A stretch of DNA of 64,000 nt from Patescibacteria group bacterium UBA6532 (GCA_002434805.1 DJKW01000009.1:15483-79482), one strand, 5' to 3'; shown: positions 2,753-62,101, counted from the stretch's first letter. Made by a program: numbers and translations. Notes: a model not told the origin generated them from the sequence alone.

Positions 2753-4471
2753 ATGAAAATTGAAACAATTAGACATTCTCTATCACATATAATGGCTTTG
2801 GCTGTCCAGGAATTATTTCCTGGGACTAAATTTGGGATTGGACCAGCTATTGAAAACGGGTTTTATTACGATTTTGACCTGCCTGTTTCCATAACTTTAA
2901 ATGACCTGCCAAAGATTGAAAAGAAAATGAAGAAAATAATTAAAGGGAATCTCCTGTTTAAAAAAGAGAAACTAAAAATAACTGAAGCTAAAAAGTTATT
3001 TAAAAGCCAACCATATAAGCTAGAGTTGATTAAAGAACTAAAAGACAAACAAATCAATACTTACCAAAGCGGGAAGTTTACTGATTTTTGCAAAGGACCC
3101 CATGTTAAGTCAACCAAAGAAATTTCCATTGACGCTTTTAAGCTAACTAAGATTGCCGGTGCTTATTGGAAAGGATCTGAAGAAAAGACAATGTTAACTC
3201 GAATTTACGGAACGGCATTTCAAACAAAAAAAGAATTGGATGATTTCTTCACTGCAAAAAAAGAAGCTGAAAAAAGAGACCACCGGGTTTTAGGCCAAAA
3301 GCTGGAGCTTTTTATGTTTGATGAAGAAGTGGGAGCCGGCTTGCCTATTTGGATGCCAAAAGGAACGATTATTAGAAAAATTATTAAAGATTACTTATAC
3401 GAAGAATTAACCAAAGAAGGTTATAATTGGCTGTGGACTCCCCATATCGGACATTTAAATTTATGGAAAAAGTCAGGACATTGGAATTTTTACAAAGAAA
3501 GCCTCTACTCCCCCATTAAGATTGACGAGGAAGAGTATTTGTTAAAACCGATGAACTGCCCTTTCCATGTTAAGGTTTACAATTCTAAAATTCGAAGCTA
3601 TAGGGATTTGCCTTTATATTTTACAGAATTTGGAACAGTTTATCGTTATGAGAGGTCTGGAGTTTTACACGGGCTGACAAGGGTCCGCGGCTTTACCCAA
3701 GACGATGCTCATATTATTTGCGAACCCGACCAAATAGCCAAAGAGGTTGCTAAAATCGTAAAGCACGGTCTTAAAATGCTAAAAAGCTTTGGCTTTAAAG
3801 ATTTTAATATTTATCTTTCCACCCGGCCGGAAAAATATACCGGGTCTTTAAAAGACTGGCAAAAAGCCACAAATACTCTTAAGTATGTATTGGGAAAACT
3901 TAAATTAAAATATCAAATTGATTCTGGCGGTGGAGTTTTCTACGGACCGAAAATCGACATTAAAATAAAAGATTCTTTAGGACGAGAATGGCAATGTACG
4001 ACAATTCAGTTTGATTTTAACCTGCTAGAGCGCTTTAAAATGACCTATATTGATAAAAAGGGCAAGAAAAAGAAACCCTATATGATTCATAGAGCTCTTT
4101 TAGGGTCATTGGAAAGATTTATTGGAGTTTTGCTTGAACATTATGCCGGAAATCTTCCCCTTTGGCTTTCTCCAGAGCAAATTTGGGTAATACCTATTGG
4201 TTCTCGTCACCTAAAATATGCGAAAGAAATCAGCAATAAGCTCCAGAATGCTAGCTTCAGATTTAAAATAAAGGATGAAAATGAAACTGTTTCAAGAAAG
4301 ATAAGGGATGGCGAGCTCCAAAAAATTCCTTATTTACTTGTCGTCGGCGACAAAGAAATAACAAGTAAGTCAGTGAGAGTCAGAAAAAGAGGAAAAGGAG
4401 ACATAGGCCTTATTAAATTAACTAAATTTATAAATAAGGCTACAATGGAGTTAGAAAAAAGAAGCAATTAA
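2753..4471 (+). CDS. thrS: Threonyl-tRNA synthetase (no N-terminal TGS domain)
   Basis: Starts at the editing-domain HxxxH (IRHSLSHIMA). Class II core present: YRYERSG, GLTRVRGFTQDDAHI. C-terminal anticodon-binding domain. Confidence 0.93.
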   Translation: MKIETIRHSLSHIMALAVQELFPGTKFGIGPAIENGFYYDFDLPVSITLNDLPKIEKKMKKIIKGNLLFKKEKLKITEAKKLFKSQPYKLELIKELKDKQINTYQSGKFTDFCKGPHVKSTKEISIDAFKLTKIAGAYWKGSEEKTMLTRIYGTAFQTKKELDDFFTAKKEAEKRDHRVLGQKLELFMFDEEVGAGLPIWMPKGTIIRKIIKDYLYEELTKEGYNWLWTPHIGHLNLWKKSGHWNFYKESLYSPIKIDEEEYLLKPMNCPFHVKVYNSKIRSYRDLPLYFTEFGTVYRYERSGVLHGLTRVRGFTQDDAHIICEPDQIAKEVAKIVKHGLKMLKSFGFKDFNIYLSTRPEKYTGSLKDWQKATNTLKYVLGKLKLKYQIDSGGGVFYGPKIDIKIKDSLGREWQCTTIQFDFNLLERFKMTYIDKKGKKKKPYMIHRALLGSLERFIGVLLEHYAGNLPLWLSPEQIWVIPIGSRHLKYAKEISNKLQNASFRFKIKDENETVSRKIRDGELQKIPYLLVVGDKEITSKSVRVRKRGKGDIGLIKLTKFINKATMELEKRSN

Positions 4472-4475
4472 TTTT

Positions 4476-6080
4476 ATGGCAGAGCTATCCCAATTAACCC
4501 AACGCTTAATCCAGCAATATCAAAATTGGTCCCAATCCCTCCATCCCAAGGAGGGAATTCCTACAATCCACGTTGACGAGGTGGCTTCAAGTGTTGCTTC
4601 CTTCTATGAAAAGATAAGGGGGATAATCGAGTGGCGGGAAGAACACCTTTTAAGAGAAACAGCTATTGAGAGAATATTAAAAAGAAGGCTTATTTTAAAA
4701 AAAAGAGAGGAGAAGATTGCCGAACCCTTTATTTTAGAACTAATTCGTGGCGGGCACTTTCCAAACAATACAATTCCCGAAGTGAAGATAGAAGAAATTC
4801 AGAAAATAATAGATAAATATGCATTTATTCTAAAGAACAGTAATAATAAGGAACAAGAAAAACAAAAAACTCAACTCTTAAACTGGATTTTAGGAATCGC
4901 TGCCTGTGAAATAGAAGCCACGCTTGCTCCTCCAATTAAAGAAAAGGCTTTAATTGACTATATGACAGAATTCATGAAGGAAAGGATAAAAATCAAAGAA
5001 GGTATCTTTGTTATTGGCGGGATAACAGAAGAGCAAAAAAATACCCAAATTTATATCGCTTGTCAAAGATCCCTTTTTAAATTAGACGACTCTTTAATTA
5101 GGTATCATCTCTTGAATAAAAAATATTCAGATTGGTCAAATCTTTCTTCCCCACGTCTCCAAGAGATATCGGAAAATATCTTGAATATTCACAAAAGCAT
5201 TGAAGGAGATCTTCAACATCCCTGGGGAGAAAGAATTTACAATATTTGCGAAAGACACGATACTTCTTATTTGATTTTAGGCGATATTATAGCAATGAAT
5301 CCTTCAGAAGCACAAAAGAAACTAGAAAATCCTTCAGTTTTGGAAAATTTAATTAAAGAGACCTACGGAAAAAGAGTGATTAAGTTAAGAGAAAAATTAA
5401 ATAGAGCGGCTCTTTACAGCACTATTTCCATTTTTATCACTAAAATAGTTTCTGCTCTCGCTGTTGAAATTCCTTTTGATATCTATATAACTCAAGCTTT
5501 CAGCTATCAAACTCTTGGGATAAATATTATTTTTCCTCCATTCTTAATGTTTGTTTTAGTAAAAACAATAAGGCCTCCCAAGAAAGGAAATCTTCAAAAA
5601 GTGATAATGGAAGTTATAAAAATAACTTATGAAACAAAGAAAAAAGACGTTTACGTAGCAAAAAAACCAGCCAAAAGAGGTATTATTTTAAACAGTATAA
5701 TCATCTTTTTTTACCTTCTTGGATTTCTCGGTTCTTTTGGTATAATAATATGGGGTCTCCAAAGGCTGAATTTTGGAATTCTTTCAATGACAATCTTCTT
5801 ATTATTCTTGACTATGATTTCATATACTGGCATAAAGATCCGCCAAAGGGCAAAAGAATTAATTATACAGGAAGAACAGGAAACATTTTTGGGCATGATT
5901 TTTGACTTCTTTTCTTTGCCGATCATTCGAGTTGGAAGATGGATTTCTTCCCAATGGCAAAAGCATAATGCTGTAATAATCATCTTTAATTCTTTAATTG
6001 ATATGCCATTTCAACTATTCATTGAATTTCTGGAACAATGGAGATACTTTTTAAAAGAGAAAAAAGACGAAATACATTAA
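4476..6080 (+). CDS. Hypothetical membrane protein (soluble N-half, about 4-5 C-terminal TM helices)
   Basis: 534-aa ORF 4 nt after thrS. Hydrophobic segments after about residue 310. No family recognised. Confidence 0.6.
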   Translation: MAELSQLTQRLIQQYQNWSQSLHPKEGIPTIHVDEVASSVASFYEKIRGIIEWREEHLLRETAIERILKRRLILKKREEKIAEPFILELIRGGHFPNNTIPEVKIEEIQKIIDKYAFILKNSNNKEQEKQKTQLLNWILGIAACEIEATLAPPIKEKALIDYMTEFMKERIKIKEGIFVIGGITEEQKNTQIYIACQRSLFKLDDSLIRYHLLNKKYSDWSNLSSPRLQEISENILNIHKSIEGDLQHPWGERIYNICERHDTSYLILGDIIAMNPSEAQKKLENPSVLENLIKETYGKRVIKLREKLNRAALYSTISIFITKIVSALAVEIPFDIYITQAFSYQTLGINIIFPPFLMFVLVKTIRPPKKGNLQKVIMEVIKITYETKKKDVYVAKKPAKRGIILNSIIIFFYLLGFLGSFGIIIWGLQRLNFGILSMTIFLLFLTMISYTGIKIRQRAKELIIQEEQETFLGMIFDFFSLPIIRVGRWISSQWQKHNAVIIIFNSLIDMPFQLFIEFLEQWRYFLKEKKDEIH

Positions 6081-6162
6081 ATAATTATTTTAATGCTTAA
6101 ACATTCGAGCATTTAAACATTGTCTTTTTGCTTAAACGTTTTAAGTATTTTAATCCAAATAT

Positions 6163-8352
6163 ATGACATATTTAGTTAAGTTTTCAATAATCCTAATCAT
6201 CTCTCTTTTAGGCCTAACCTTTATTTCCGGCGTCTTAGCCCAGGAAACACCATCTCCTGATATAACCGAGATTATTAATCTTGACGAAAACATTACTTCA
6301 GAGGATCTTGAGGTGGGCACGCCTAGAATTTTACCAGACAGCCAGTTTTATTTTGTGAAAAATTTATCTCGAGGAATTCGTTCCTTGCTTACTTATAATC
6401 CAGTAGCAAAAATTGAATTAAAGCAGCAATTTGCCGATGAAAAGTTAATAGAGGTAAAAGAATTAGCTGAAGCAAGGCCAGAGAAAAAAGAAGCTCTGAA
6501 AAAAGCTTTTGAAAGCTACAGACTGGAAGTTGAACAACTGAAAGTAGTGGCAGAAAATATCACAGAAAATGTCGAAAACCCCAGAATTGATAAATTTTTA
6601 GATAAATTTATTGACCGTCAGTTAAAACACCAAAGATTACTTGGAATGCTAGAGACAAAGCTCCCACCCGAAGTTTATGAAAAGATAGAAGAAGTAAAAG
6701 AAGAAAACCTGGCTAAATTCTCTGACATCGGGCTAAAGTTTGCTGATCCCCTGATTTTTAAAGAGAAAATTGAGAAAATTTCCGAGGAACAATCAGGAAG
6801 CCAATTTAAGCATTTCAAAAACTTGGAAATATTAATTGCTTTGGAAGATAAAGTTTCAGATCAAGCCAAAGAAGCAATTCAATCAGCCCAAAAAAACTCA
6901 CTCAAGCGACTTAAAGAAAATTTAGAAGGAATGTCATTAGAAGACCAGGAGAAATTTAAAGACTATATTAATAACATTGGCGGGAATGAAATCAGGCATA
7001 TAGAAGTTATCCACGAGCTTGAAGGAGAAAATATTAAAGCTGACGTTCGGAAAACAATAGAGAATTCCAAAGAAAAGGTAGTCCAGCGAATTGAAACTCG
7101 ATTGTCAGTTTTTGAGAAAGGAGAAATAACTAAAGGAAGAGAAGCACTTCTCGGTCATTTAGAAAACGGGGAAATGAAAGATTTAAGAATTATCAAAGAA
7201 CTGGAAAACAGTCTTCCTCCCCAAACTATTGATAAAATATTGACTGTCAAATATAGAGCGATGGATAATTTTAGAAAAGATTTTGAGTCAGCTGATACAG
7301 TAAAAGAAAGAGAAAAATTCCTTAAACCTCTTGAAAAACTCCATGATGTTAAGCAGTTTGAAATATTTGAGGAAATTGAAGAAATAATTTCAGACGACAA
7401 AAAGGGATTTTTAGAACAACTAAAAGAAAAGACGTTAACTGAAATGAGAATTGAAGTAAATGGAGCGGAAAGCTCTAAAATGCGTACTCGTATATATGAA
7501 AAGTTAGCTGGTGATTCTCCAGAACAGATTGAAGTTATAAGAAAATACATTCCTCAATCAGACTTAAGGGAAGGAATTATAGTAAAACAAGTTGAAAAAT
7601 TAAAAATCAGAATAGAAAATATTGAAAATCCTATTCGTCTTGAAATCATAAGAAAGAAGGTTGACGAAGGAGGAATTATCAAACAAGAAGTAATTAGATT
7701 ACAGCCTAAATTCTTCCAAAAAGTAGAAGAAAAACAGGATATGTTTTCAGAAAAGATAACGCCGGAACGAGTTAAAGAAATGATTGAAAAAGTTAAGCAC
7801 CTTATTAACCAAGCCAAAGAAGAGCTTAATAAAATAGATGATGAAACAAGGAAGGTTTCGGCTAATAAGCTATTAGAAAGCGCCTTAGAGCATCAAAGAA
7901 GAGCTATTAAGGCTTTAAACGAGGAGGAAACAGGAGAAGCTTTCGGTCAGGCCACTTCAGCTCTTTATAACGCTGAAAATGCCATCCGAATAATAAGGAA
8001 AACTGAGATAAAAACAAATATCATGGAAAGCCGGATTATAGAACCTTCTGTTTCTCAAGAAATACCCACTATTGAAAAACCCCTTATCAGAGAATTATGT
8101 ATTCAGGTAATAACTCCGGCTATTAATTCAGATGGAATCTGCAAAAAGTTTTCCACCCCATGTGACGTTCCAGATGATTGGAAGAAAGTTGATAGCTGTC
8201 CCACGACTACCTCTGAGCCAAAAACTGAAGAAGGTGTTTTAAGCCCGATTTTTAGAAAGATTGAATCTGTACTTCCTTTAAAAGTTGAAGATAGTTCAGT
8301 AGAATCAGTAGAGAAAATAGAAGTTCAAGACGTTAAGACACTTGACAAATAA
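6163..8352 (+). CDS. Secreted or anchored coiled-coil protein with DUF5667-like N-terminal domain
   Basis: N-terminal signal/TM (FSIILIISLLGLTFISGVLA). DUF5667-like string SQFYFVKNLSRGIRSLLTYNPVAKIELKQQFADEKLIEVKEL. Long E/K-rich helical body and Cys-containing C-terminus. Confidence 0.65.
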   Translation: MTYLVKFSIILIISLLGLTFISGVLAQETPSPDITEIINLDENITSEDLEVGTPRILPDSQFYFVKNLSRGIRSLLTYNPVAKIELKQQFADEKLIEVKELAEARPEKKEALKKAFESYRLEVEQLKVVAENITENVENPRIDKFLDKFIDRQLKHQRLLGMLETKLPPEVYEKIEEVKEENLAKFSDIGLKFADPLIFKEKIEKISEEQSGSQFKHFKNLEILIALEDKVSDQAKEAIQSAQKNSLKRLKENLEGMSLEDQEKFKDYINNIGGNEIRHIEVIHELEGENIKADVRKTIENSKEKVVQRIETRLSVFEKGEITKGREALLGHLENGEMKDLRIIKELENSLPPQTIDKILTVKYRAMDNFRKDFESADTVKEREKFLKPLEKLHDVKQFEIFEEIEEIISDDKKGFLEQLKEKTLTEMRIEVNGAESSKMRTRIYEKLAGDSPEQIEVIRKYIPQSDLREGIIVKQVEKLKIRIENIENPIRLEIIRKKVDEGGIIKQEVIRLQPKFFQKVEEKQDMFSEKITPERVKEMIEKVKHLINQAKEELNKIDDETRKVSANKLLESALEHQRRAIKALNEEETGEAFGQATSALYNAENAIRIIRKTEIKTNIMESRIIEPSVSQEIPTIEKPLIRELCIQVITPAINSDGICKKFSTPCDVPDDWKKVDSCPTTTSEPKTEEGVLSPIFRKIESVLPLKVEDSSVESVEKIEVQDVKTLDK

Positions 8353-8370
8353 AAATTATTTAGGTAAAAT
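8342..8370 (+). promoter_or_regulatory. Sigma70-type promoter of RNase P RNA (TTGACA-17-TAAAAT)
   Basis: TTGACA at 8342-8347 overlaps the last codons of the upstream CDS. 17-nt spacer, TAAAAT at 8365-8370, about 8-10 nt before the rnpB 5' end. Confidence 0.6.
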
Positions 8371-8380
8371 ATAATTGTCT

Positions 8381-8741
8381 TAGTAGGTTGGGTGATCGCT
8401 CTCTCATTTTTCAATTGAAAGATGGGAAGGGAGGAAAGTCCGAACACTCATTTTCGCCATAAGGCGGATCTAAAAAAATAGCGGGTAACACCCGTCGGCC
8501 GCAAGGCTAGAGGTGCGAACAGAGACGTGCAAGACCGAAAGGTCAAGCAACCCTTTTAAAGGGTTAGACTGAGAAGTAATTCTCGGTGTGAAACGGCTAA
8601 ATCCTTATTGGGTGCAAGAACAAACATTTTGACAATCTCCGGATTTGCCAAAATGGAAAAGTAGTTCGCTTGAGTCAAAGAGCAATCTTTGGCCCAGATA
8701 GATGATCACATAAAGACAGAATTCGGCTTATAGATCTACTA
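8381..8741 (+). ncRNA. rnpB: RNase P RNA, bacterial type A
   Basis: Universal strings present: GGAGGAAAGTCCGAACAC, GGTAACACCCG, GTGCGAACAGAGA, GTGAAACGG, CCCAGATAGATGATCAC, ACAGAATTCGGCTTATAG. P1 pairing of tagtag (8381-8386) with ctacta (8736-8741). Ends approximate (+/-5 nt). Confidence 0.93.
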
Positions 8742-8746
8742 GGATA

Positions 8747-8780
8747 TTAAAAAGCACGACGTTCCAACGCCGCGCTTTTT
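8747..8780. terminator. Bidirectional intrinsic terminator between rnpB and rnhA
   Basis: Hairpin 8754-8775 (gcacgacg/ttccaa/cgccgcgc). On the minus strand it is fully paired with two G-U pairs. Flanked by an A-run upstream and a T-run downstream. Confidence 0.55.
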
Positions 8781-8796
8781 AATTATTGCTACTTCT

Positions 8797-9246
8797 TTAA
8801 AGATTTAAAGAACTCTGGCCTTCATGGCTATCAAGTACTTCATTTAACAACCGGTCAGCTTCCTGGTTTTTTTCTCGAGGAATTAAAGAAAACTTAACTT
8901 TTCCATAATCAATCTTTAAATTCCATGCTTTTAAAAACAAAAGTTGAATCTTTGAATCAATAACCTTATATTTACCCCCTAACTGATTAATTAAAAGCTC
9001 TGAGTCTGATTTTATTTCAACCTCAAGCTTTTTTATTTCCTTTTTTCCGTAAAGAGCTTTTATTTTCTTTAAAGCTAAAATTAAAGCTTGGTATTCAGCT
9101 TCATTATTGGTGGTTTTGCCCAAGTATTCAGAATACTCTTTTATTTTCTCTCCCTTATTGCTATAAATTGCCACACCGACTGCGGAAGGTCCCGGATTTC
9201 CCCGAGAACCGCCATCAGTATAGATAATTAATTTTTTCATTTTCAA
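8797..9246 (-). CDS. rnhA: Ribonuclease HI
   Basis: IYTDGGSRGNPGPSA, NNEAEYQALILAL and a C-terminal D-containing motif typical of RNase H type 1. Confidence 0.85.
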   Translation of the reverse strand: MKMKKLIIYTDGGSRGNPGPSAVGVAIYSNKGEKIKEYSEYLGKTTNNEAEYQALILALKKIKALYGKKEIKKLEVEIKSDSELLINQLGGKYKVIDSKIQLLFLKAWNLKIDYGKVKFSLIPREKNQEADRLLNEVLDSHEGQSSLNL

Positions 9247-11885: not shown

Positions 11886-13535
11886 TTAAAACTTAATTAT
11901 TTCCCCCGGCTTTATTGTTCCTTCTTTTTTTTTACTGCCTTTGGAATCTCCTTCCTGATTTTTGGACTTGAGCGACTCTCTTAAAACGTCTTTTAATTCA
12001 CCTAAGTTCACCTCTTTTCTCTTTGGTCTTACTTCCTTAAAAGAAGTTGGTTTTTGTTCTGTCGCCTCTTTTAAAGAAAAATGGCGTGGGGTTGTTGGCT
12101 TTGAAAAATTTTGGGCTTTTTTCCGGCAAGACTTGCAGTAAACCGGCCTTACTCCGTCTGGGGCAAAAACTACTTTTGTCCATTTTTTACAACTAGAACA
12201 CTGGGCGTCATAAAGCTGAGGAGGAGATGACGCTGGTTTTTGAGAGGTTATTAGTAAATCTGAAAGTCCTGCCCAACGAGCAATCTTTTCATCAACAATT
12301 TTACGGAGGGTGCCGTATTTTTCCCGACAAAACCGAATAATCTCTTCTTTATTTGATCTTTCCAGTTTAAGCAAGGGAGCTATGGTTCTAGCTGAAAAAG
12401 GACGACCGGCTAATCCATCAATCATCAGCTTTAAATAAATATTGTACTTTCCTATATTAACAAGGTCTTCAGCAGTAAATTGGGGGGATAACTCTCTTTC
12501 TAAAAATTCAGCGTCTTCGGCTCCTATTCGAAAACAAATTATCGTTCCCACGTTTCCGAAAACAGCATCCCGCACCGTTTCGTCCATTTGAGCAATATAT
12601 TGGTGGCCCAAAATTAAAGCTAACCTATACTTTCTAGCTTCAGATAAAATATTAACAAAAGATTCGGTGGCAAAGTTTTGAAATTCATCAACGTATAAAT
12701 AAAAATCCTTTCTCTTTTCTTCTGGTATATCCACCCTCGACATGGCAGCTAACTGCAACTTGGTTATGATTAAAGCCCCTAAAAGTCTTGAATTATCCTC
12801 CCCTACTCTTCCTTTAGATAAATTTATAATCAGAATCTTTTGCTTATCCATGATTTCCCTCATATTGATTGAAGATTTTTCCTGACCGATAATATTTCGA
12901 ATCAAAGGGACGGAAATAAATTGACCGATTTTATTTTGAATGGCGGCTGTAGCTTCTACTTCATATCTTTGCGTATAGCGGGCAAATTCCTGGACCCAAA
13001 AACTCTTCACAACGGGATCTGTAACTTTATCTACCACTTTTTTCCGATAGTCGATATCAGCCAACATTCGATTAACCCCCAAAAGAGTGGATCCAGGATA
13101 CTCAAGAAGGGCTAAAATACAATTATTTAAAATATATTCCATACGGGCAGACCAAACATCCGGCCATATCTTTTTAAAAACTCCCATTAATCCTCCGGCC
13201 ACCAAATGCCTGTATTCTGGATTAATCTCTTCCATAATATTAAAAGCAATGGGATATCCTAAATCAGCCGGATTAAAATAAACTACATCCTTAATTCGTT
13301 CTTTAGGAATGAAGTCAAGAAGCTCTTCTGAAGCCTCTCCATGAGGATCAACAAAACCAATGCCCTTTCCTTGCTGAATATCTTGGATTGCCATGTTTTT
13401 AAGCATTACTGTCTTTCCCATGCCGGTTTTTCCCACAACATAAATATGCCGACGCCTATCGTCGGTCTTTATGCCAAATTTTTTATTAGCATTCCGAAAA
13501 GTGGTCTCGCCAAAAAAATTTATATTTTCATTCAT
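11886..13535 (-). CDS. TraD/VirD4 (type IV coupling protein)-like P-loop ATPase with C-terminal CxxC-x17-CxxC zinc ribbon
   Basis: Walker A VVGKTGMGKT; Walker B region FYLYVDEFQNF; SEARKYRLALILGHQYIAQM typical of TrwB/TraD-type ATPases. C-terminal CSSC-17 residues-CKSC followed by a K-rich tail. Confidence 0.75.
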   Translation of the reverse strand: MNENINFFGETTFRNANKKFGIKTDDRRRHIYVVGKTGMGKTVMLKNMAIQDIQQGKGIGFVDPHGEASEELLDFIPKERIKDVVYFNPADLGYPIAFNIMEEINPEYRHLVAGGLMGVFKKIWPDVWSARMEYILNNCILALLEYPGSTLLGVNRMLADIDYRKKVVDKVTDPVVKSFWVQEFARYTQRYEVEATAAIQNKIGQFISVPLIRNIIGQEKSSINMREIMDKQKILIINLSKGRVGEDNSRLLGALIITKLQLAAMSRVDIPEEKRKDFYLYVDEFQNFATESFVNILSEARKYRLALILGHQYIAQMDETVRDAVFGNVGTIICFRIGAEDAEFLERELSPQFTAEDLVNIGKYNIYLKLMIDGLAGRPFSARTIAPLLKLERSNKEEIIRFCREKYGTLRKIVDEKIARWAGLSDLLITSQKPASSPPQLYDAQCSSCKKWTKVVFAPDGVRPVYCKSCRKKAQNFSKPTTPRHFSLKEATEQKPTSFKEVRPKRKEVNLGELKDVLRESLKSKNQEGDSKGSKKKEGTIKPGEIIKF

Positions 13536-13537
13536 AA

Positions 13538-14854
13538 TTATTCTACAGGTAAACCAGGAGGAGAACCTCCTTTTTTAGATTTAACTCGAGAAATAAATGG
13601 AGCTGAAGCAACATCTCGACCCGGGAAATGAAATATTGTAGCTAACTCCTCTATGTTTAAGGTAAATGTTCCGCCAGGGCGAGGAAATAAAGGAGGAACT
13701 CTGCTTATATAGCGTTTAAATAACTTCCTTTTCCTTAAATATAATCTTCTGGGTATAATAAGATTTAAAGGTAAAAACCAGTGTTTTTTAATTTTTGTTA
13801 TGGTATTTGACCAGGGCCTTAAAGCATTGAGGTCAGCTGTAGCGAATTGCTGGAAAAAACCAAAAGGAATAGTTTTAACTGCTCCCTGGTAAACTTCTTT
13901 TTTTGCTAAATAAACAAACCTGATACTGCAATTAAACATCAGCCTGCTAATTTTTTGTTCTACCCCAGCGACAATATCCCTTTCTCCCGGAGTAAGCCTC
14001 ATTTCAGGCGGCATAATATCCATTGGTTTTTTCTCTTCGGTTTCTTCGGCTGTTTTCCCGCTAATTAATACTTCGGCGATCTGTTGAATTATTGATTTTC
14101 CTTTTGATTCATCCGGCCTCTTAGCTAATTTATCGGCTACTGCTCTTCCTTTAGCAGTATAAGGCAGTCCTTCTTGCGGATTTTTACTGTCTGTAATTGG
14201 TCCTGCCATGATTTGAACCCAAAGCTGTTCTCCAGGACCAAGTTTCCCCATTCCCTCTAAAAGAGTAGAAAGAGGGTCTATTCTTTTTTCTTCTTTGGGT
14301 GCGTCTGGTTTTTCTTCAAAAAACTTTGAATAGACTTTGATCGGATAAACATCATTTTTGGATAATTGATAATCTGTGGCCCACATGCTCCAGTTTTTAT
14401 TCGGTATGTCTTGGGGCACATACTTTGTATAATCATCAACTTCTGAAATTTCAGCATCAGGATATTGGGCAAAAATAGAGGATTCAATTGCAGATCGGCT
14501 TCTTTCAGGGAATCTTAAAAAAAAGTGGGGTTTACCATCAATACTCACTATCTCAAAGGATATGCTAAGAAGAGTTTTTCCGTCAATCCAATGCTCCCAC
14601 CAGTCTGCTGGATCGTAAACATTGCCCCAAAAGGCGGAAAAAACCTGCTCCATTGCCTTAACAGGCTTTAAAATTTCTTTTGGTATTGTAATTTCCAGCA
14701 CTACAAATTTTTGCTTGGAAATCCATAATTCAAATCTCCACCATCTCCACAAAAAGAAAAAAGGCCTATATAAAAGGAAAGGAAGTGCTATCCACCACCA
14801 ATTACTTAAAATGACCAAAACATTATTTGAATTTAAAAGCAGTTCTTGTGGCAT
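13538..14854 (-). CDS. Membrane protein partner of the T4CP-like ATPase (unknown family)
   Basis: 438-aa ORF ending 2 nt before the ATPase start. W/F-rich N-terminal TM pair (WWWIALPFLLYRPFFFLWRWW) followed by a large soluble domain. Confidence 0.6.
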   Translation of the reverse strand: MPQELLLNSNNVLVILSNWWWIALPFLLYRPFFFLWRWWRFELWISKQKFVVLEITIPKEILKPVKAMEQVFSAFWGNVYDPADWWEHWIDGKTLLSISFEIVSIDGKPHFFLRFPERSRSAIESSIFAQYPDAEISEVDDYTKYVPQDIPNKNWSMWATDYQLSKNDVYPIKVYSKFFEEKPDAPKEEKRIDPLSTLLEGMGKLGPGEQLWVQIMAGPITDSKNPQEGLPYTAKGRAVADKLAKRPDESKGKSIIQQIAEVLISGKTAEETEEKKPMDIMPPEMRLTPGERDIVAGVEQKISRLMFNCSIRFVYLAKKEVYQGAVKTIPFGFFQQFATADLNALRPWSNTITKIKKHWFLPLNLIIPRRLYLRKRKLFKRYISRVPPLFPRPGGTFTLNIEELATIFHFPGRDVASAPFISRVKSKKGGSPPGLPVE

Positions 14855-14892: not shown

Positions 14893-15864
14893 TTAAGCTT
14901 CTTTTATCGTATATCTGTCTTTAGAATCTTTTAAAAAGTAGTTTTTATCTTGTAAATTTAACAAAATTGTATTTCTCTTTACTTGGCGCTGCAAAAGAAC
15001 CTTGCCAATAATCTCTTTTTTTGACAAAGGTTTTGCTGATTCTTTCAAGGTTTTAGAAATAACTTCTTTTACGATACCGGGCGTATATCCCCATTCTTTC
15101 AAAGCATAGAGGCCGCGGCCGACTAAAACAAATCTCGAATCTTTAATTAGCTCATTGTGAATGGTTTGGGCCTGGCTGCCGCTCTTTTCTCTTTCAGAGA
15201 AGTTTAAATCTTTTATTAATTCAGCAACCTTAGTGAAATGAAGAGGTTTTTTCTCTTTTGTAAAAACCAAATAAGCTTTGTCTTTAACAAACCTTAAGTT
15301 AATTTCCGGCCATTCTTTTAAACCGTAAAAACCCTGAGGTCCTTTCATTATGTCTTTTGAGATCTCAATATAAGAAATGTTATTTGAAGGAGACTTAGGT
15401 TTTCTTGTCTGTTTGAGTTCTTTAATAAAAGAAGAAATTAAAACCTTGGCTTTCTTCATAGAATCTTTATCAATTATCCAAAAAGGATAAAAATCTTTAG
15501 TTTCAGGATATCTTTTAAATTGTCTGCTAAGCGCCAAGATTAAAAATACTTCATTTTGAAGTTTTTGGCCGCCAAATTCAGCCAGCAATAAATCTTCTTT
15601 TTTTAAACCGCCCTGCTTTTTTAAATAACGAGAAAATTCTTGAAAAACACCTCCTAATTTATTTTTAGAAATATCTTCTATTTTATTAAGACCGACTTCT
15701 TCAATCTGACGCGCTCTTTCCCTGGTAATTCCATAATCTTTACCAATGGATTCCAAGGTTCTCTTATCTGAACCGGCCAAACCGAAACGTTTCTCTAAAA
15801 CATCTTTTGTTCTAGAGTCTAAATCCTTAAATAGGTTGCGGCAAATTGTTTGATAATTTCTCAT
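14893..15864 (-). CDS. DNA-binding protein: sigma-70 region-4-like HTH plus HARE-HTH-like winged helix domain(s)
   Basis: N-terminus DVLEKRFGL...RTLESIGKDYGITRERARQIEEVGLNKI (sigma r4). C-half LHFTKVAELIKDL...TIHNELIKDSRFVLVGRGLYALKEWGY (HARE-HTH as in RpoE delta). Confidence 0.6.
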   Translation of the reverse strand: MRNYQTICRNLFKDLDSRTKDVLEKRFGLAGSDKRTLESIGKDYGITRERARQIEEVGLNKIEDISKNKLGGVFQEFSRYLKKQGGLKKEDLLLAEFGGQKLQNEVFLILALSRQFKRYPETKDFYPFWIIDKDSMKKAKVLISSFIKELKQTRKPKSPSNNISYIEISKDIMKGPQGFYGLKEWPEINLRFVKDKAYLVFTKEKKPLHFTKVAELIKDLNFSEREKSGSQAQTIHNELIKDSRFVLVGRGLYALKEWGYTPGIVKEVISKTLKESAKPLSKKEIIGKVLLQRQVKRNTILLNLQDKNYFLKDSKDRYTIKEA

Positions 15865-59253: not shown

Positions 59254-60404
59254 TCAGTTTTGTTTTCTTTTGCGGAAAAATAATAACACTAAAATTATTA
59301 CTAACACCAAACCGAATCCTGCTAATAGTTTAGTTAATGACAAGCCCTCGTTTTGAATTAATATTCCGGCGGCCTCAACTATTGAAGCCTGGGCTTTGGC
59401 TAGATCTAAAGGAAAATTATCTCTTGAATCTATAACTCCATCTCCATCGCTATCTTCTATTAAAAAATTGGTTCCAAGGTCTATTTCCTCTTTATCTGAA
59501 AGGCCGTCATTGTCGGTATCTGGACTTAAGGGGTCAGTTCCAAAAACAAACAACTCTTCCTCATCGGCTATTCCGTCATTATCATCATCTAAATCAGTAT
59601 TATTCCCTAAACCATCTTTATCTGTGTCTTGCCATTCGGTTGAATCTAAAGAAAAGACGTCATCTCCATCTTCAACCATATCTCCGTCAGTATCTCTGTT
59701 AAATGAATCGGTGCCAACAATTTTCTCGACTTCATCGGCTACTCCGTCATTGTCGTCATCTAAATCAGCGTTATTTCCAATACTGTCGCCGTCATTATCT
59801 TCGCTTTCAGCTGGATTAAGAGGGAAAACATCTTCCTTGTCAGCCACTCCATCTCCATCGCTATCTGGATTTAAGGGGTCAGTTCCTAAAATTACCTCTT
59901 TGCTGTCTAAAAGACCGTCTTCGTCATCATCTAAATCTTTAACGTTTCCTATGCCGTCTCCGTCAGTATCTAAGTCAACGAAATATTTTCTCGAGTAGCT
60001 ACGTTATCTATCGGACTCTCGTCTTGAAAATTGGTTCCAATAATTTTAGCCTGGACATCATAAATACCTGCTTTAATTTGCCAGTCGATAAAAACATCGT
60101 CATAAGTACTGGCCTTAATAGAAATGGGTTGAGGGTCTGTAATTATTTCATCATTGATTAAAAAAACAACGAATCCGTAAACGTCTACATCGCCAACATT
60201 AAATATCCTGGCGAAAATTCTAATCTTATCTCCTTCTAAAGGGTCTTCCTTAGAAAAAGTTATATCAGATACTTTAAGAGAAAGATCTACTTTGGCCAAA
60301 GAATCCTTAATAGAGAATGTAAGGATTAAAAATATTATTATCAGTACCAGAGTTATTGAAAATGGCTTCTTCATAATATAGTTCAACTGTTTAAATTCTA
60401 CCAT
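59254..60404 (-). pseudogene. Surface protein (signal/TM + CARDB-like beta-sandwich + thrombospondin type-3 Ca-binding repeats + C-terminal TM) split by an apparent 1-nt frameshift at about 59975-60003
   Basis: Upstream ORF (59970-60404) ends ...DNVATRENISLT*. The other frame is open from 60003 and reads ...FVDLDTDGDGIGNVKDLDDDEDG..., continuing into the 59254-59847 ORF (DxDxDGxxDxxD repeats). No start codon precedes the first repeats. Confidence 0.6.
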
Positions 60405-60422
60405 TTATTAAGCTAGTTTATC

Positions 60423-60454
60423 AAAAAAAACTGCACTAGAATAGTCTAGTGCAG
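60423..60454 (-). terminator. Strong intrinsic terminator ending the 16S transcription unit
   Basis: Perfect 9-bp stem ctgcactag/ctagtgcag (60431-60454) with a 6-nt loop, followed on the minus strand by U8 (A-run 60423-60430). Confidence 0.75.
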
Positions 60455-60482
60455 TAAAAGCAAAACAGCTTTGTTAATATTG

Positions 60483-60501
60483 GTTCTTTAGAGTTGTCCT
60501 G
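60483..60501 (-). repeat. 3' half of the 16S processing stem
   Basis: gttctttagagttgtcctg is the exact reverse complement of 62111-62129 (19 bp). Confidence 0.75.
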
Positions 60502-60608
60502 GATCTCGTTTTAAGGTGTCGAGATCAACACCTTGTAGTTAAAATCCGAATTCCAGATTTCAACTACAGTCGACAACTATAATGTCTACAAATAACAAAA
60601 TTATTTGT

Positions 60609-62101
<1,493 letters not shown>

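What the first reader, a model, noticed from the sequence alone, without database searches (positions are those of the whole stretch)
11886..14854. Orphan T4SS coupling-protein-like ATPase with CxxC-x17-CxxC tail plus dedicated membrane partner
This is a two-gene module with a 2-nt gap.

The first gene encodes a 438-aa protein with a W/F-rich N-terminal TM pair and a large domain of unknown family.

The second encodes a TraD/TrwB/VirD4-type P-loop ATPase (GKTGMGKT, YLYVDEFQNF, ARKYRLALILGHQYIAQM). The ATPase ends in a zinc ribbon with exactly 17 residues between CSSC and CKSC, the spacing of the CxxC-x17-CxxC domain family, followed by a Lys-rich tail.

No relaxase, VirB4, VirB6, pilin or other conjugation genes are nearby. 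The flanks are pgk and a housekeeping DNA-binding protein. A coupling-protein-like translocase embedded in core genome, with a nucleic-acid-binding-looking tail, suggests a DNA or protein translocation device. That could be relevant to the episymbiotic lifestyle of CPR, and the partner protein is uncharacterised.
Basis: partly seen in the sequence, partly recalled or inferred. Interest (0 to 1): 0.55.

Follow-up and report, generated by a model that had tools for sequence, protein, structure and literature searches.

The report
Split coupling-protein ATPase of CPR bacteria
These two genes are the two halves of one membrane-anchored, conjugation-type motor ATPase that most candidate-phyla-radiation bacteria make as a single protein; the family was already known, but the split, the fold of its front half and its zinc-finger tail have not been described as far as I could find.

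Summary
Two minus-strand genes lie 2 nt apart: 13538-14854 (438 aa, aromatic membrane hairpin) and 11886-13535 (549 aa, P-loop ATPase with CSSC-x17-CKSC and a basic tail).

The ATPase is VirD4/TrwB-like: Pfam TrwB_AAD_bind scores 47 bits against a cut-off of 20.5.

The "partner of unknown family" is Pfam DUF8128. It is a detached N-terminal half, not an independent protein. The concatenated pair aligns in one collinear HSP with single-chain proteins of Berkelbacteria (40.6% identity), Falkowbacteria, Saccharibacteria and Bacillus phage G gp156.

By predicted structure, DUF8128 resembles the N-terminal domain of VirB4 (TrwK). The ATPase half resembles TrwB.

The locus is not an ICE:
- The ATPase follows DUF8128 in 77 of 77 testable genomes, inside a conserved secDF...pgk-recJ-rnhA block.
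- The ATPase is the best-conserved gene of that block.
- In a second DUF8128 clade the ATPase is rarely adjacent (3 of 80 loci).

The upstream sigma-region-4/HARE-HTH gene accompanies DUF8128 in both clades.

One fused homologue sits beside a Patescibacterial T4SS cluster. Orphan T4CP homologues in 96% of Patescibacteria genomes were already published in 2025.

Verdict: a new variant of a known kind. The substrate and any dependence on a T4SS are unresolved.

The parts
13538..14854 (-). DUF8128 (PF26449) protein, 438 aa. This is the detached N-terminal half of the CPR-type coupling-protein-like ATPase: a membrane hairpin followed by a two-lobed alpha/beta cytoplasmic domain.
   Evidence: ORF. 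Orthologues carry PF26449 = DUF8128. AF2 model has pLDDT 74.8. The nine best Foldseek PDB hits are all full-length TrwK/VirB4. It is collinear with the N-terminal part of single-chain homologues.
14720..14824 (-). N-terminal W/F-rich helical hairpin (aa 11-45), the probable membrane anchor.
   Evidence: Wimley-White octanol sum is -18.6 kcal/mol and the Kyte-Doolittle mean is 1.45. AF2 predicts helices 3-27 and 29-47. 64 of 92 single-chain relatives have one clear N-terminal TM helix at the same position.
13541..13651 (-). Conserved C-terminal motifs of the partner: EELATIFHFPG ... KKGGSPPGLPVE. In single-chain relatives this segment is the linker that runs directly into the ATPase domain. It is the probable docking peptide.
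   Evidence: The motif is conserved across distant DUF8128 proteins. It is kept, and sometimes duplicated, at the extreme C-terminus of extended members. It is continuous with '...NLP..G...YRG...DRRRH.YI.GKTGTGKS' in fused forms. Its pLDDT is below 50 in the isolated partner.
11886..13535 (-). T4CP-like (VirD4/TrwB-type) P-loop ATPase, 549 aa, with no membrane segment.
   Evidence: Pfam TrwB_AAD_bind 47.4 bits (GA 20.5) and TraG-D_C 27.2 (GA 22). TrwB and DotL are the only PDB sequence hits. The homologous half of the fused model matches TrwB with TMt 0.63-0.66. It is 70-75% identical to many CPR orthologues.
13410..13433 (-). Walker A motif, GKTGMGKT (aa 35-42).
   Evidence: The same motif was found in 41 of 52 extracted orthologues, with close variants in 3 more. 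The pattern was not matched in 8, probably because of how I assigned start codons.
12672..12701 (-). Walker B motif, YLYVDEFQNF (aa 279-288), followed by ARKYRL (aa 300-305).
   Evidence: DEFQNF is kept in 51 of 52 orthologues and EARKY[RK] in 49 of 52.
12126..12200 (-). CxxC-x17-CxxC zinc ribbon (aa 446-470).
   Evidence: TIGR04272 37.3 bits (cut-off 36) and PF23477 39.8 bits (cut-off 27). The exact spacing is kept in 47 of 52 orthologues. The ribbon is absent from all 91 single-chain forms inspected. Zinc binding by this domain family was shown for M. mazei small proteins (PMC12704099).
11889..12125 (-). Basic C-terminal tail with conserved short motifs (SLKEA..., ...LK.VL..L..., G.IKPGE.IKF at the very end).
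   Evidence: 19 K/R and 11 D/E in 76 aa. The end motif G.LKPGE.VKF and the SLKEA motif recur in orthologues, including those that lack the zinc ribbon.
14893..15864 (-). Sigma-70 region 4 + HARE-HTH (RNAP-delta-like) protein, 323 aa. It is probably the first gene of the module and of its transcription unit.
   Evidence: Pfam Sigma70_r4 40.3 bits and HARE-HTH 36 bits. NCBIfam finds RpoD C-terminal and RNAP-delta matches, all below cut-off. The gene is directly upstream of DUF8128 in about 75 of 80 loci of clade 1, in 64 of 71 loci of a second clade with different flanks, and in L084, L086-88 and L091-93. A promoter-like site lies at 15919-15891 (the total count of such sites is within chance).

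Best explanation
The module is a gene-fission version of the Patescibacteria-wide VirD4/TrwB-type coupling-protein-like ATPase.

Shown here:
- In most CPR classes one polypeptide of about 730-950 aa carries, in order, a single N-terminal TM helix (present in 64 of 92 forms), a DUF8128 domain whose predicted fold resembles the VirB4 N-terminal domain, and a T4CP-type nucleotide-binding domain with its all-alpha insertion.
- In the Paceibacteria-type lineage of this window, the gene is cut just after the conserved ...PPxNLP linker.
- The upstream gene therefore encodes the membrane anchor plus DUF8128. The downstream gene encodes the soluble ATPase.
- This ATPase has additionally acquired a CxxC-x17-CxxC zinc ribbon and a basic tail.

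Inferred:
- The two products are made from one transcript. The TAA-tt-ATG junction suggests translational coupling.
- They re-associate through the partner's C-terminal peptide and the ATPase's N-terminal strands.
- They form a membrane-tethered hexameric motor.

Inferred with less confidence:
- The motor acts like a type IV coupling protein. It would recruit a substrate, more likely a nucleic acid or nucleoprotein than a free protein given the zinc ribbon and basic tail.
- It would feed that substrate to the chromosomal MPF-FATA-like T4SS found in about 80% of Patescibacteria.
- The co-conserved sigma4/HARE-HTH protein would act either as the operon's regulator or as a DNA-binding adaptor.
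For: Gene structure and motifs.

T4CP-type ATPase:
- Pfam TrwB_AAD_bind, TraG-D_C and DUF87 are all above their gathering cut-offs.
- TrwB and DotL are the only PDB sequence hits.
- In a quick NJ tree, TrwB joins at the base of the CPR clade, far from TrwK.

Fission of a single protein:
- phrog_5156 matches both proteins in order.
- The concatenated pair gives one collinear BLASTP HSP with phage G gp156 (E 1.8e-52, crossing the junction).
- It also gives one HSP each with CPR single-chain proteins: P0429 at 40.6% over 843 columns, P0491 at 35.5%, P0435 at 34%, P0456 at 32%.
- Many PF26449+PF10412 proteins occur in Berkelbacteria, Falkowbacteria, Saccharibacteria and Gottesmanbacteria.
- Split zinc-ribbon ATPases cluster together, nested among fused forms.

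Fold:
- The partner alone hits only full-length TrwK/VirB4 in the PDB (E 3e-4, probability 1.0).
- The fused model (pLDDT 87.6) ranks TrwK first (E 5e-16, about 860 aligned columns). Its ATPase half matches TrwB at TMt 0.63-0.66.

Co-conservation and core status:
- The ATPase lies directly downstream in 77 of 77 testable loci.
- It is the most conserved gene of the block, with a median identity of 69.9% against 63.5% for SecD and 49.7% for Pgk.
- No mobile-element genes were found and GC content is uniform.

T4SS link:
- The fused homologue P0491 is divergently adjacent to PrgI, VirB4 and an M23 peptidase near dnaN.
- The literature reports VirD4-type homologues in 2,918 of 3,035 Patescibacteria genomes (PMC12102498).
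Against: - No T4SS gene lies in this 64-kb window. Whether this genome has virB4 could not be checked.
- Published data weaken dependence on a T4SS. Only 148 of 5,713 CPR T4CP homologues are near virB4. They occur in more genomes than VirB4 does (96% against 80%). In Southlakia epibionticum the t4cp homologue was not essential although the T4SS was.
- Similarity of DUF8128 to the VirB4 N-domain is structural only. TM-scores are 0.30-0.36, and hhalign against TrwK and gp155 gave no N-domain signal.
- Physical re-association of the two halves is inferred, not modelled.
- In a second DUF8128 clade the ATPase is not within 7 kb in 77 of 80 loci. Tight linkage is therefore not universal.
- NCBIfam equivalog cut-offs for TraD, CD1115 and CedD are missed by a wide margin.
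Confidence: 0.6

Rival explanations
1. The same split protein works independently of any T4SS. It would be a membrane-tethered DNA (or nucleoprotein) translocase exapted for a core cellular job, such as DNA export or import at the host contact, or handling of the cell's own chromosome. The zinc ribbon and basic tail, together with the sigma4/HARE-HTH protein, would provide the DNA grip.
For: - T4CP homologues occur in 96% of Patescibacteria against 80% for VirB4, at about two copies per genome and mostly far from virB4. The authors themselves raise exaptation.
- The t4cp homologue is dispensable while the T4SS is essential in S. epibionticum.
- The ATPase is the best-conserved gene of a housekeeping block.
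- The lineage-specific zinc ribbon and basic tail have conserved motifs.
- A DNA-binding-type gene is persistently adjacent.
Against: - One fused homologue is adjacent to a T4SS cluster.
- FtsK is reported in at least some CPR (TM7x papers found), so a division translocase is not obviously missing.
- comEC-dependent competence already explains DNA uptake in Saccharibacteria.
- No direct evidence of DNA binding exists.
Confidence: 0.3
2. The pair is a second, divergent VirB4-type assembly ATPase, split in the way TrsD/TrsE are in pGO1, rather than a coupling protein. It would energise assembly of a T4SS or pilus.
For: - Full-length TrwK/VirB4 is the top Foldseek hit for both the partner and the fused homologue.
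- The overall architecture of N-domain plus NBD and the size of about 800 aa are VirB4-like.
- Phage G has a bona fide VirB4-like gp155 with the same N-domain fold right next to gp156.
- A TrsD/VirB4 N-terminal split is known in the literature.
Against: - The NBD scores with T4CP models and not VirB4 models. TrwB_AAD_bind scores 47 bits, while VirB4 families score at most 20 bits and AAA_10 and CagE_TrbE_VirB do not hit.
- An all-alpha insertion is present, and TMt to TrwB is 0.63-0.66 against about 0.3 to TrwK.
- L176 has a separate canonical VirB4 beside the fused gene.
Confidence: 0.08
3. The pair is a remnant of a mobile element, prophage or defence system, as suggested by the PHROG hit, the PADLOC mad8 hit and its relatives on archaeal and Streptomyces plasmids.
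For: - phrog_5156 matches at E 9e-59 and PADLOC mad8 at 1.6e-17.
- tblastn hits fall on Natrinema, Sulfolobus and Streptomyces plasmids and on Bacillus phages.
Against: - The pair sits at the same chromosomal position between secDF and pgk in 77 species-level genomes.
- No integrase, relaxase or phage gene is present, and GC content is uniform.
- The partner has no relative in IMG/VR contigs or in plasmids.
- Sequence conservation is very high.
Confidence: 0.02

Closest known systems
Type IV coupling proteins (VirD4 / TrwB / TraD / Cag-beta / DotL)
   Same: - The FtsK/HerA-type P-loop NBD carries an all-alpha insertion.
- Pfam TrwB_AAD_bind and TraG-D_C hits are above cut-off.
- Structural TMt to TrwB-deltaN70 is 0.63-0.66 for the homologous half.
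- The protein is membrane-tethered.
- One fused homologue is encoded beside a T4SS.
   Different: - The ATPase polypeptide has no TM domain.
- A domain of about 350 aa (DUF8128), absent from canonical T4CPs, lies between the anchor and the NBD, and here it is encoded by a separate gene.
- There is a C-terminal zinc ribbon and basic tail.
- No relaxase or T4SS is nearby.
- The location is core and chromosomal.
- The protein scores far below the NCBIfam equivalog cut-offs.
VirB4 (TrwK of R388), and the TrsD/TrsE arrangement of pGO1
   Same: - The two-part architecture of N-domain plus NBD, and a similar total size.
- The predicted DUF8128 fold matches only full-length TrwK in the PDB.
- There is a precedent for encoding a VirB4-N-terminal-like protein (TrsD) separately.
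   Different: - The NBD is of T4CP type, not VirB4 type.
- No sequence-level similarity to the VirB4 N-domain could be detected.
- A canonical VirB4 coexists with the fused form in L176.
Patescibacterial 'T4CP homologues' of Quinonero-Coronel et al. 2025 (PMC12102498)
   Same: This is almost certainly the same protein family. Their HMM search detected VirD4-type homologues in 96% of genomes, mostly far from virB4. NCBI names the orthologues 'type IV secretion system DNA-binding domain-containing protein'.
   Different: That paper does not describe the DUF8128 N-domain, its VirB4-like fold, the gene fission in Paceibacteria, the zinc-ribbon tail or the sigma4/HARE-HTH neighbour. This statement rests on text searches of the paper.
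Bacillus phage G gp156 (with gp155)
   Same: gp156 is a natural single-chain homologue, collinear with the concatenated pair (E 1.8e-52). It carries PF26449. Its predicted structure is the partner's best BFVD match (E 1e-14).
   Different: It is phage-encoded, lacks the zinc ribbon, and lies next to a VirB4-like paralogue (gp155). Identity is only 24%.

Membership tests
Type IV coupling protein (VirD4/TrwB/TraD) | FtsK/HerA-superfamily P-loop NBD recognised by T4CP family models | tested here: met
   TrwB_AAD_bind scores 47.4 bits (GA 20.5) and TraG-D_C 27.2 (GA 22). Walker A and B motifs are intact.
Type IV coupling protein (VirD4/TrwB/TraD) | All-alpha domain inserted in the NBD | tested here: met
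   The Pfam TrwB_AAD_bind alignment spans aa 24-320. The fused homologue model has a helical bundle at 420-530 between Walker A and B. It matches TrwB-deltaN70, which includes the AAD, at TMt 0.63-0.66. For the window protein itself this is by homology only.
Type IV coupling protein (VirD4/TrwB/TraD) | N-terminal transmembrane domain in the same polypeptide | tested here: not met
   The ATPase has no hydrophobic segment. The anchor is on the separate upstream protein.
Type IV coupling protein (VirD4/TrwB/TraD) | Encoded with, or in the same genome as, a T4SS (VirB4 etc.) and usually a relaxase | tested here: inconclusive
   None was found in the 64-kb window. The rest of the genome is not available. 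The fused homologue in L176 lies beside PrgI and VirB4. No relaxase was seen anywhere.
Type IV coupling protein (VirD4/TrwB/TraD) | Passes a curated equivalog model (TraD, CD1115-type VirD4, CedD) | tested here: not met
   Scores of 44, 42 and 35 bits fall well short of cut-offs of 366, 250 and 600.
Type IV coupling protein (VirD4/TrwB/TraD) | Couples a substrate to a secretion channel | not testable with these tools
   This needs genetics or biochemistry.
VirB4 | VirB4-type N-terminal domain | tested here: inconclusive
   Foldseek: the partner's nine best PDB hits are all full-length TrwK (E 3e-4 to 2.5e-2; probability 0.99-1.0 for eight of them; TMq 0.29-0.36). No CTD-only VirB4 or other RecA-fold ATPase appears among the hits. 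No sequence signal was found. Residue-level mapping is not available.
VirB4 | VirB4-type NBD (AAA_10 / CagE_TrbE_VirB / TIGR00929) | tested here: not met
   The window ATPase has no such Pfam hit at E<=1. VirB4_plasma scores 15.6 bits against a cut-off of 590. In P0491, TIGR00929 scores 14.4 bits against 643.
DUF8128 (PF26449) | Match to the family model | tested here: met
   The local Pfam copy lacks this model, so the direct scan returned nothing. Orthologues at 52-67% identity, and more distant ones, carry a precomputed PF26449 hit. The membership is therefore indirect.
CxxC-x17-CxxC zinc ribbon (TIGR04272 / PF23477 zf_Tbcl_2) | Two CxxC motifs 17 residues apart, scoring above the curated cut-off | tested here: met
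   Scores are 37.3 against 36 and 39.8 against 27. The spacing was verified and is kept in 47 of 52 orthologues.
Integrative conjugative element / prophage | Integrase, relaxase, mating-pair genes; atypical composition; variable presence | tested here: not met
   Searches found none. The locus is syntenic in 77 genomes. No IMG/VR relative was found.
FtsK/SpoIIIE | FtsK_SpoIIIE motor domain, gamma winged-helix domain, multi-pass N-terminal domain | tested here: not met
   There is no FtsK_SpoIIIE hit for the window ATPase at E<=1. The only hit is a sub-threshold 16 bits in the L084 orthologue.

The most novel reading that the evidence does not exclude
The CPR protein would be a living intermediate between VirB4 and coupling proteins: a T4CP-type motor that still carries the VirB4-type N-domain. 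In Paceibacteria it has been split, given a zinc-ribbon and basic tail, and locked into an operon with an RNA-polymerase-like sigma4/delta DNA-binding protein. Together these would form a T4SS-independent, near-essential device that moves DNA or a nucleoprotein across or along the membrane of these epibionts.
Probability: 0.2. Interest if true: 0.75.

Novelty: new variant of a known kind. Interest (0 to 1): 0.5.

Why it matters
Patescibacteria make up a large share of bacterial diversity and depend on host cells. Their T4SS is the first shown to be essential for the bacterium that carries it. The role of their almost universal VirD4-like ATPase is still open.

This analysis adds several concrete points:
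- The ATPase family has a VirB4-like N-domain (DUF8128).
- A major lineage encodes the two halves separately.
- The soluble half there has gained a zinc ribbon and basic tail.
- The soluble half is the most conserved gene in its neighbourhood.
- DUF8128 travels with a sigma4/HARE-HTH gene.

These points assign a role to one Pfam DUF. They also provide a natural split system for interaction and reconstitution experiments. Finally, they bear on how coupling proteins arose from VirB4-like ancestors.

Tried and rejected
- Direct Pfam and NCBIfam scans of the partner returned nothing, because the local Pfam copy lacks PF26449.
- A PDB sequence search with the partner profile gave only one chance-level hit, to a LytTR regulator at E 0.012.
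- hhalign of the DUF8128 and fused profiles against single sequences of TrwK and phage G gp155 gave no N-domain alignment. The VirB4-N-domain link is therefore structural only.
- tblastn of the partner against plasmids, and a scan of IMG/VR contigs, found no relative.
- The best plasmid hit of the ATPase is a 395-aa orphan in Sulfitobacter, flanked by transposases, and was uninformative. The Priestia 'plasmid' hit is unannotated.
- L039 seemed to lack the ATPase, but it has a 100-N scaffold gap at that point.
- A Kyte-Doolittle threshold of 1.6 misses the partner's Trp-rich anchor. The Wimley-White scale detects it.
- The defence reading (PADLOC mad8) and the phage reading were rejected on context.
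- The FtsK-substitute idea was not pursued, because FtsK is reported in at least TM7x and there is no FtsK-model hit.
A natural fused homologue was modelled instead.
- The promoter and terminator scan gave counts near the shuffle expectation. Only the position of one promoter-like site upstream of the sigma4/HARE gene is suggestive.


Full report
**1. Observation**

One search lists two minus-strand ORFs at exactly the reported coordinates: 13538..14854 (438 aa) and 11886..13535 (549 aa). The junction reads ...CCT GTA GAA TAA tt ATG..., a 2-nt gap. All quoted ATPase motifs are present:
- Walker A, GKTGMGKT, at aa 35-42.
- Walker B, YLYVDEFQNF, at aa 279-288.
- ARKYRLALILGHQYIAQM at aa 300-317.
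- CSSC-x17-CKSC at aa 446-470.
- A 76-aa tail with 19 K/R.

The partner's N-terminus is Trp/Phe-rich. Its Wimley-White octanol sum is -18.6 kcal/mol (aa 18-36), but its Kyte-Doolittle mean is only 1.45. I therefore read it as one hydrophobic helix plus an aromatic amphipathic helix rather than a clear TM pair. The ATPase has no membrane segment. Both proteins have thousands of homologues.

**2. The ATPase**

- Pfam gives TrwB_AAD_bind 47.4 bits (GA 20.5), TraG-D_C 27.2 (GA 22), DUF87 23.5 (GA 23.2) and zf_Tbcl_2 39.8 (GA 27).
- NCBIfam gives TIGR04272 at 37.3 bits (cut-off 36). TraD, CD1115-type VirD4 and CedD models match only far below their cut-offs.
- The only PDB sequence hits are TrwB and DotL.
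- Orthologues are 70-75% identical. They are named 'CxxC-x17-CxxC domain-containing protein' or 'type IV secretion system DNA-binding domain-containing protein' in Nealsonbacteria and Parcubacteria MAGs.
- The window itself matches a Parcubacteria MAG contig of 87 kb.

**3. The partner is half of the same protein**

Orthologues of the partner carry Pfam PF26449, which is DUF8128. The evidence that it is a detached half:
- PHROG family 5156 (824 positions) matches the partner at positions 78-289 and the ATPase at 391-805.
- The underlying protein, Bacillus phage G gp156 (825 aa), aligns with the concatenated window pair in a single collinear HSP. Residues 74-835 of the concatenation align with 34-764 of gp156, at E 1.8e-52, crossing the 438/439 junction.
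- Using gp156 as a query found many single-chain PF26449+PF10412 proteins of 725-995 aa in Berkelbacteria, Falkowbacteria, Saccharibacteria, Gottesmanbacteria and unnamed Patescibacteria.
- The concatenated pair aligns with each in one HSP: P0429 at 40.6% identity over 843 columns, P0491 at 35.5%, P0435 at 34.2% and P0456 at 32.2%.
- In fused forms, the conserved partner C-terminus (...EELA[TS]L.H.P....K.AEAP.NLP) runs straight into ...DRRRH.YI.GKTGTGKS. The fission point is therefore in the linker.
- In split forms, the PPxNLP motif sits at the extreme C-terminus. It is kept, and sometimes duplicated, where the protein has a C-terminal extension. This is what one expects of a docking peptide.
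- A quick NJ tree of the NBDs, without support values, puts all split zinc-ribbon ATPases in one cluster nested among fused CPR forms. TrwB falls outside and TrwK is the distant root.
- None of the 91 single-chain forms inspected has the zinc ribbon. It is kept with exact spacing in 47 of 52 split orthologues.

**4. Fold**

- The AF2 model of the partner has pLDDT 74.8 and pTM 0.71. It shows a helical hairpin and two alpha/beta lobes.
- In Foldseek against the PDB, the nine best hits are all full-length TrwK/VirB4 of R388 (best E 3e-4, TMq 0.29-0.36).
- No CTD-only VirB4, TrwB or other RecA-type ATPase appears. The match must therefore be to the VirB4 N-terminal domain. This is an inference, because residue mapping is not returned.
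- In BFVD, the best matches are gp156, related Bacillus phage proteins and gp155. By Pfam, gp155 is a VirB4-like ATPase.
- A natural fused CPR homologue, P0491, modelled with 42 sequences, gives pLDDT 87.6.
- Its best PDB hits by E-value are full-length TrwK (5e-16, about 860 aligned columns).
- Its ATPase half superposes on TrwB-deltaN70 at TMt 0.63-0.66 and rmsd about 5 A. It also matches Cag-beta and DotL.
- Sequence-profile comparison with TrwK or gp155 gives no N-domain signal.

In summary, the family combines a VirB4-like N-domain with a T4CP-type motor.

**5. Context and co-conservation**

- The window is housekeeping throughout: dnaE, thrS, secA, secDF, metK, pgk, recJ, rnhA, murJ, lepA, gyrB, clpB, mur genes and gatB. 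GC content is uniform.
- A scan of species-representative genomes returned 80 loci. The ATPase lies directly downstream of DUF8128 in 77 of 77 testable loci. The other three are two contig ends and one scaffold gap.
- All 80 loci share the block secD-(metK)-secF-sigma4/HARE-DUF8128-ATPase-pgk-recJ-rnhA. Within this clade, adjacency is therefore not independent of general synteny.
- In 35 loci with all genes present, median identity to the window is as follows:

| Gene | Median identity (%) |
|---|---|
| ATPase | 69.9 |
| SecD | 63.5 |
| RnhA | 61.0 |
| SecF | 58.0 |
| DUF8128 | 50.7 |
| Pgk | 49.7 |
| sigma4/HARE | 49.3 |
| RecJ | 49.3 |

- A metagenome scan seeded with distant DUF8128 proteins returned a second clade with the synteny leuS-sigma4/HARE-DUF8128-mltG-mnmA. 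A T4CP-like ATPase lies within 7 kb in only 3 of its 80 loci. The sigma4/HARE gene is directly upstream in 64 of 71.
- Intermediate arrangements keep the trio while other flanks change:
  - L084: ...secF | sigma4 | DUF8128 | ATPase | rpiB.
  - L086-88: leuS | sigma4/HARE | DUF8128 | ATPase | grd genes.
  - L091: an extra 176-aa gene and two ATPase paralogues.
- It is probably the first gene of the unit. A promoter-like site lies at 15919-15891. No terminator-like site lies between the three genes on the coding strand (this is weak evidence).

**6. Link to T4SS and to the literature**

- The fused homologue P0491, on a 996-kb contig, is divergently adjacent to a cluster with PrgI (29.8 bits, GA 27), VirB4-type ORFs and an M23 peptidase, near dnaN. 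This is the published layout of the Patescibacterial T4SS.
- Two other fused homologues, from Falkowbacteria and Saccharibacteria, sit among housekeeping genes.
- Quinonero-Coronel et al. 2025 (PMC12102498) found:
  - 5,713 VirD4-type homologues in 2,918 of 3,035 Patescibacteria genomes;
  - only 148 of them near virB4;
  - VirB4 in 2,417 genomes;
  - almost no relaxases.
- The same paper notes that the S. epibionticum t4cp homologue is not essential although the T4SS is. It states that exaptation 'cannot be ruled out'.
- The 2025 FEMS review lists VirD4-like components among these systems.
- I found no mention of DUF8128, the fission, the zinc-ribbon tail or the sigma4/HARE neighbour.
- Zinc binding by CxxC-x17-CxxC domains has been shown for M. 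mazei small proteins. Their function is unknown.

**7. Mechanism**

Shown:
- One protein family exists in split and fused forms.
- The catalytic motifs are intact and highly conserved.
- The membrane-partitioning N-terminus is on the DUF8128 half only.

Inferred:
- The two halves are co-translated and re-associate through the partner's C-terminal peptide.
- This yields a membrane-tethered hexamer, as in TrwB and VirB4.

Inferred with less confidence:
- The hexamer acts as a coupling protein for the chromosomal T4SS.
- The zinc ribbon, basic tail and possibly the sigma4/HARE protein engage a nucleic-acid-containing substrate.

The main rival is a T4SS-independent DNA or nucleoprotein translocase. 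It is supported by the phyletic excess of T4CP homologues over VirB4, by their dispensability in S. epibionticum and by the exceptional conservation seen here. A VirB4-like assembly role is less likely, because the NBD is of T4CP type. A mobile-element, phage or defence origin is excluded by context.

**8. Verdict**

The 'dedicated partner of unknown family' is the severed N-terminal half of the same protein, and the family as a whole is already on record. The following appear to be undescribed, as far as the literature held here shows:
- the domain assignment of DUF8128;
- its VirB4-like fold;
- the lineage-specific fission;
- the zinc-ribbon tail;
- the conserved sigma4/HARE neighbour.

This is a new variant of a known kind. 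I score interest at 0.5.

Noticed in passing
window 14893-15864 (-): This 323-aa protein combines sigma-70 region 4 with an RNAP-delta-like HARE-HTH domain. It is directly upstream of DUF8128 in two clades with otherwise different synteny, and in intermediate arrangements. This adjacency is more constant than the DUF8128-ATPase adjacency. Its function is unknown.
   Followed up: partly
window ~8350-8800: The cumulative GC skew reaches its maximum here, and gene orientation switches from + to - so that transcription converges on this point. A 445-nt intergenic gap lies between 8353 and 8796. This looks like a replication terminus, 3-6 kb from the module. I did not search for a dif site.
   Followed up: no
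L001 (Bacillus phage G, JN638751) 3196-7338: The jumbo phage carries two tandem genes. gp155 is a VirB4-like ATPase (P-loop_TraG, AAA_10). gp156 is a DUF8128 + T4CP-like fusion. Both are predicted to share the same N-domain fold. Why a phage keeps a VirB4/T4CP-like pair is unexplained.
   Followed up: partly
L091 6008-12039: This lineage has DUF8128, then an unannotated 176-aa gene, then a 487-aa ATPase without a zinc ribbon. After cutA comes a second ATPase of 594 aa with the zinc ribbon. In the NJ tree the ribbon-less copy groups with fused forms.
   Followed up: partly
L094-L173 (second DUF8128 clade): In this clade DUF8128 keeps its C-terminal docking-type motif, but no T4CP-like ATPase lies within 7 kb in 77 of 80 loci. 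The downstream genes are mltG/yceG and mnmA. I could not determine where the ATPase is in these genomes, or whether they have one.
   Followed up: partly
P0322, P0353, P0361-P0363, P0376, P0378 etc.: DUF8128 proteins with C-terminal extensions of 60-120 aa repeat the PPxNLP motif at the new extreme C-terminus. This suggests that the motif must be terminal to work.
   Followed up: no
L176 2963-7872: The T4SS cluster next to the fused homologue has its VirB4-type ATPase called as two ORFs, of 387 and 231 aa. This could be a frameshift, an assembly error or a second natural split.
   Followed up: no
window 4476-8352 (+): Two large genes have little or no annotation. One is a 534-aa protein with no Pfam hit. 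The other is a 729-aa protein with a signal-peptide-like N-terminus, rich in Glu/Lys and therefore probably coiled-coil, with only a DUF5667 match.
   Followed up: no
window 60001-62000: GC content rises to 0.46 against about 0.35 elsewhere in the window. I did not examine this; it may be an RNA gene region.
   Followed up: no
L174 7519-7998 and L175 7651-7995: Small unannotated genes of 159 and 114 aa end 2-5 nt before the fused DUF8128-ATPase genes of a Falkowbacterium and a Saccharibacterium. They may be lineage-specific partners. Neither has a Pfam hit.
   Followed up: partly
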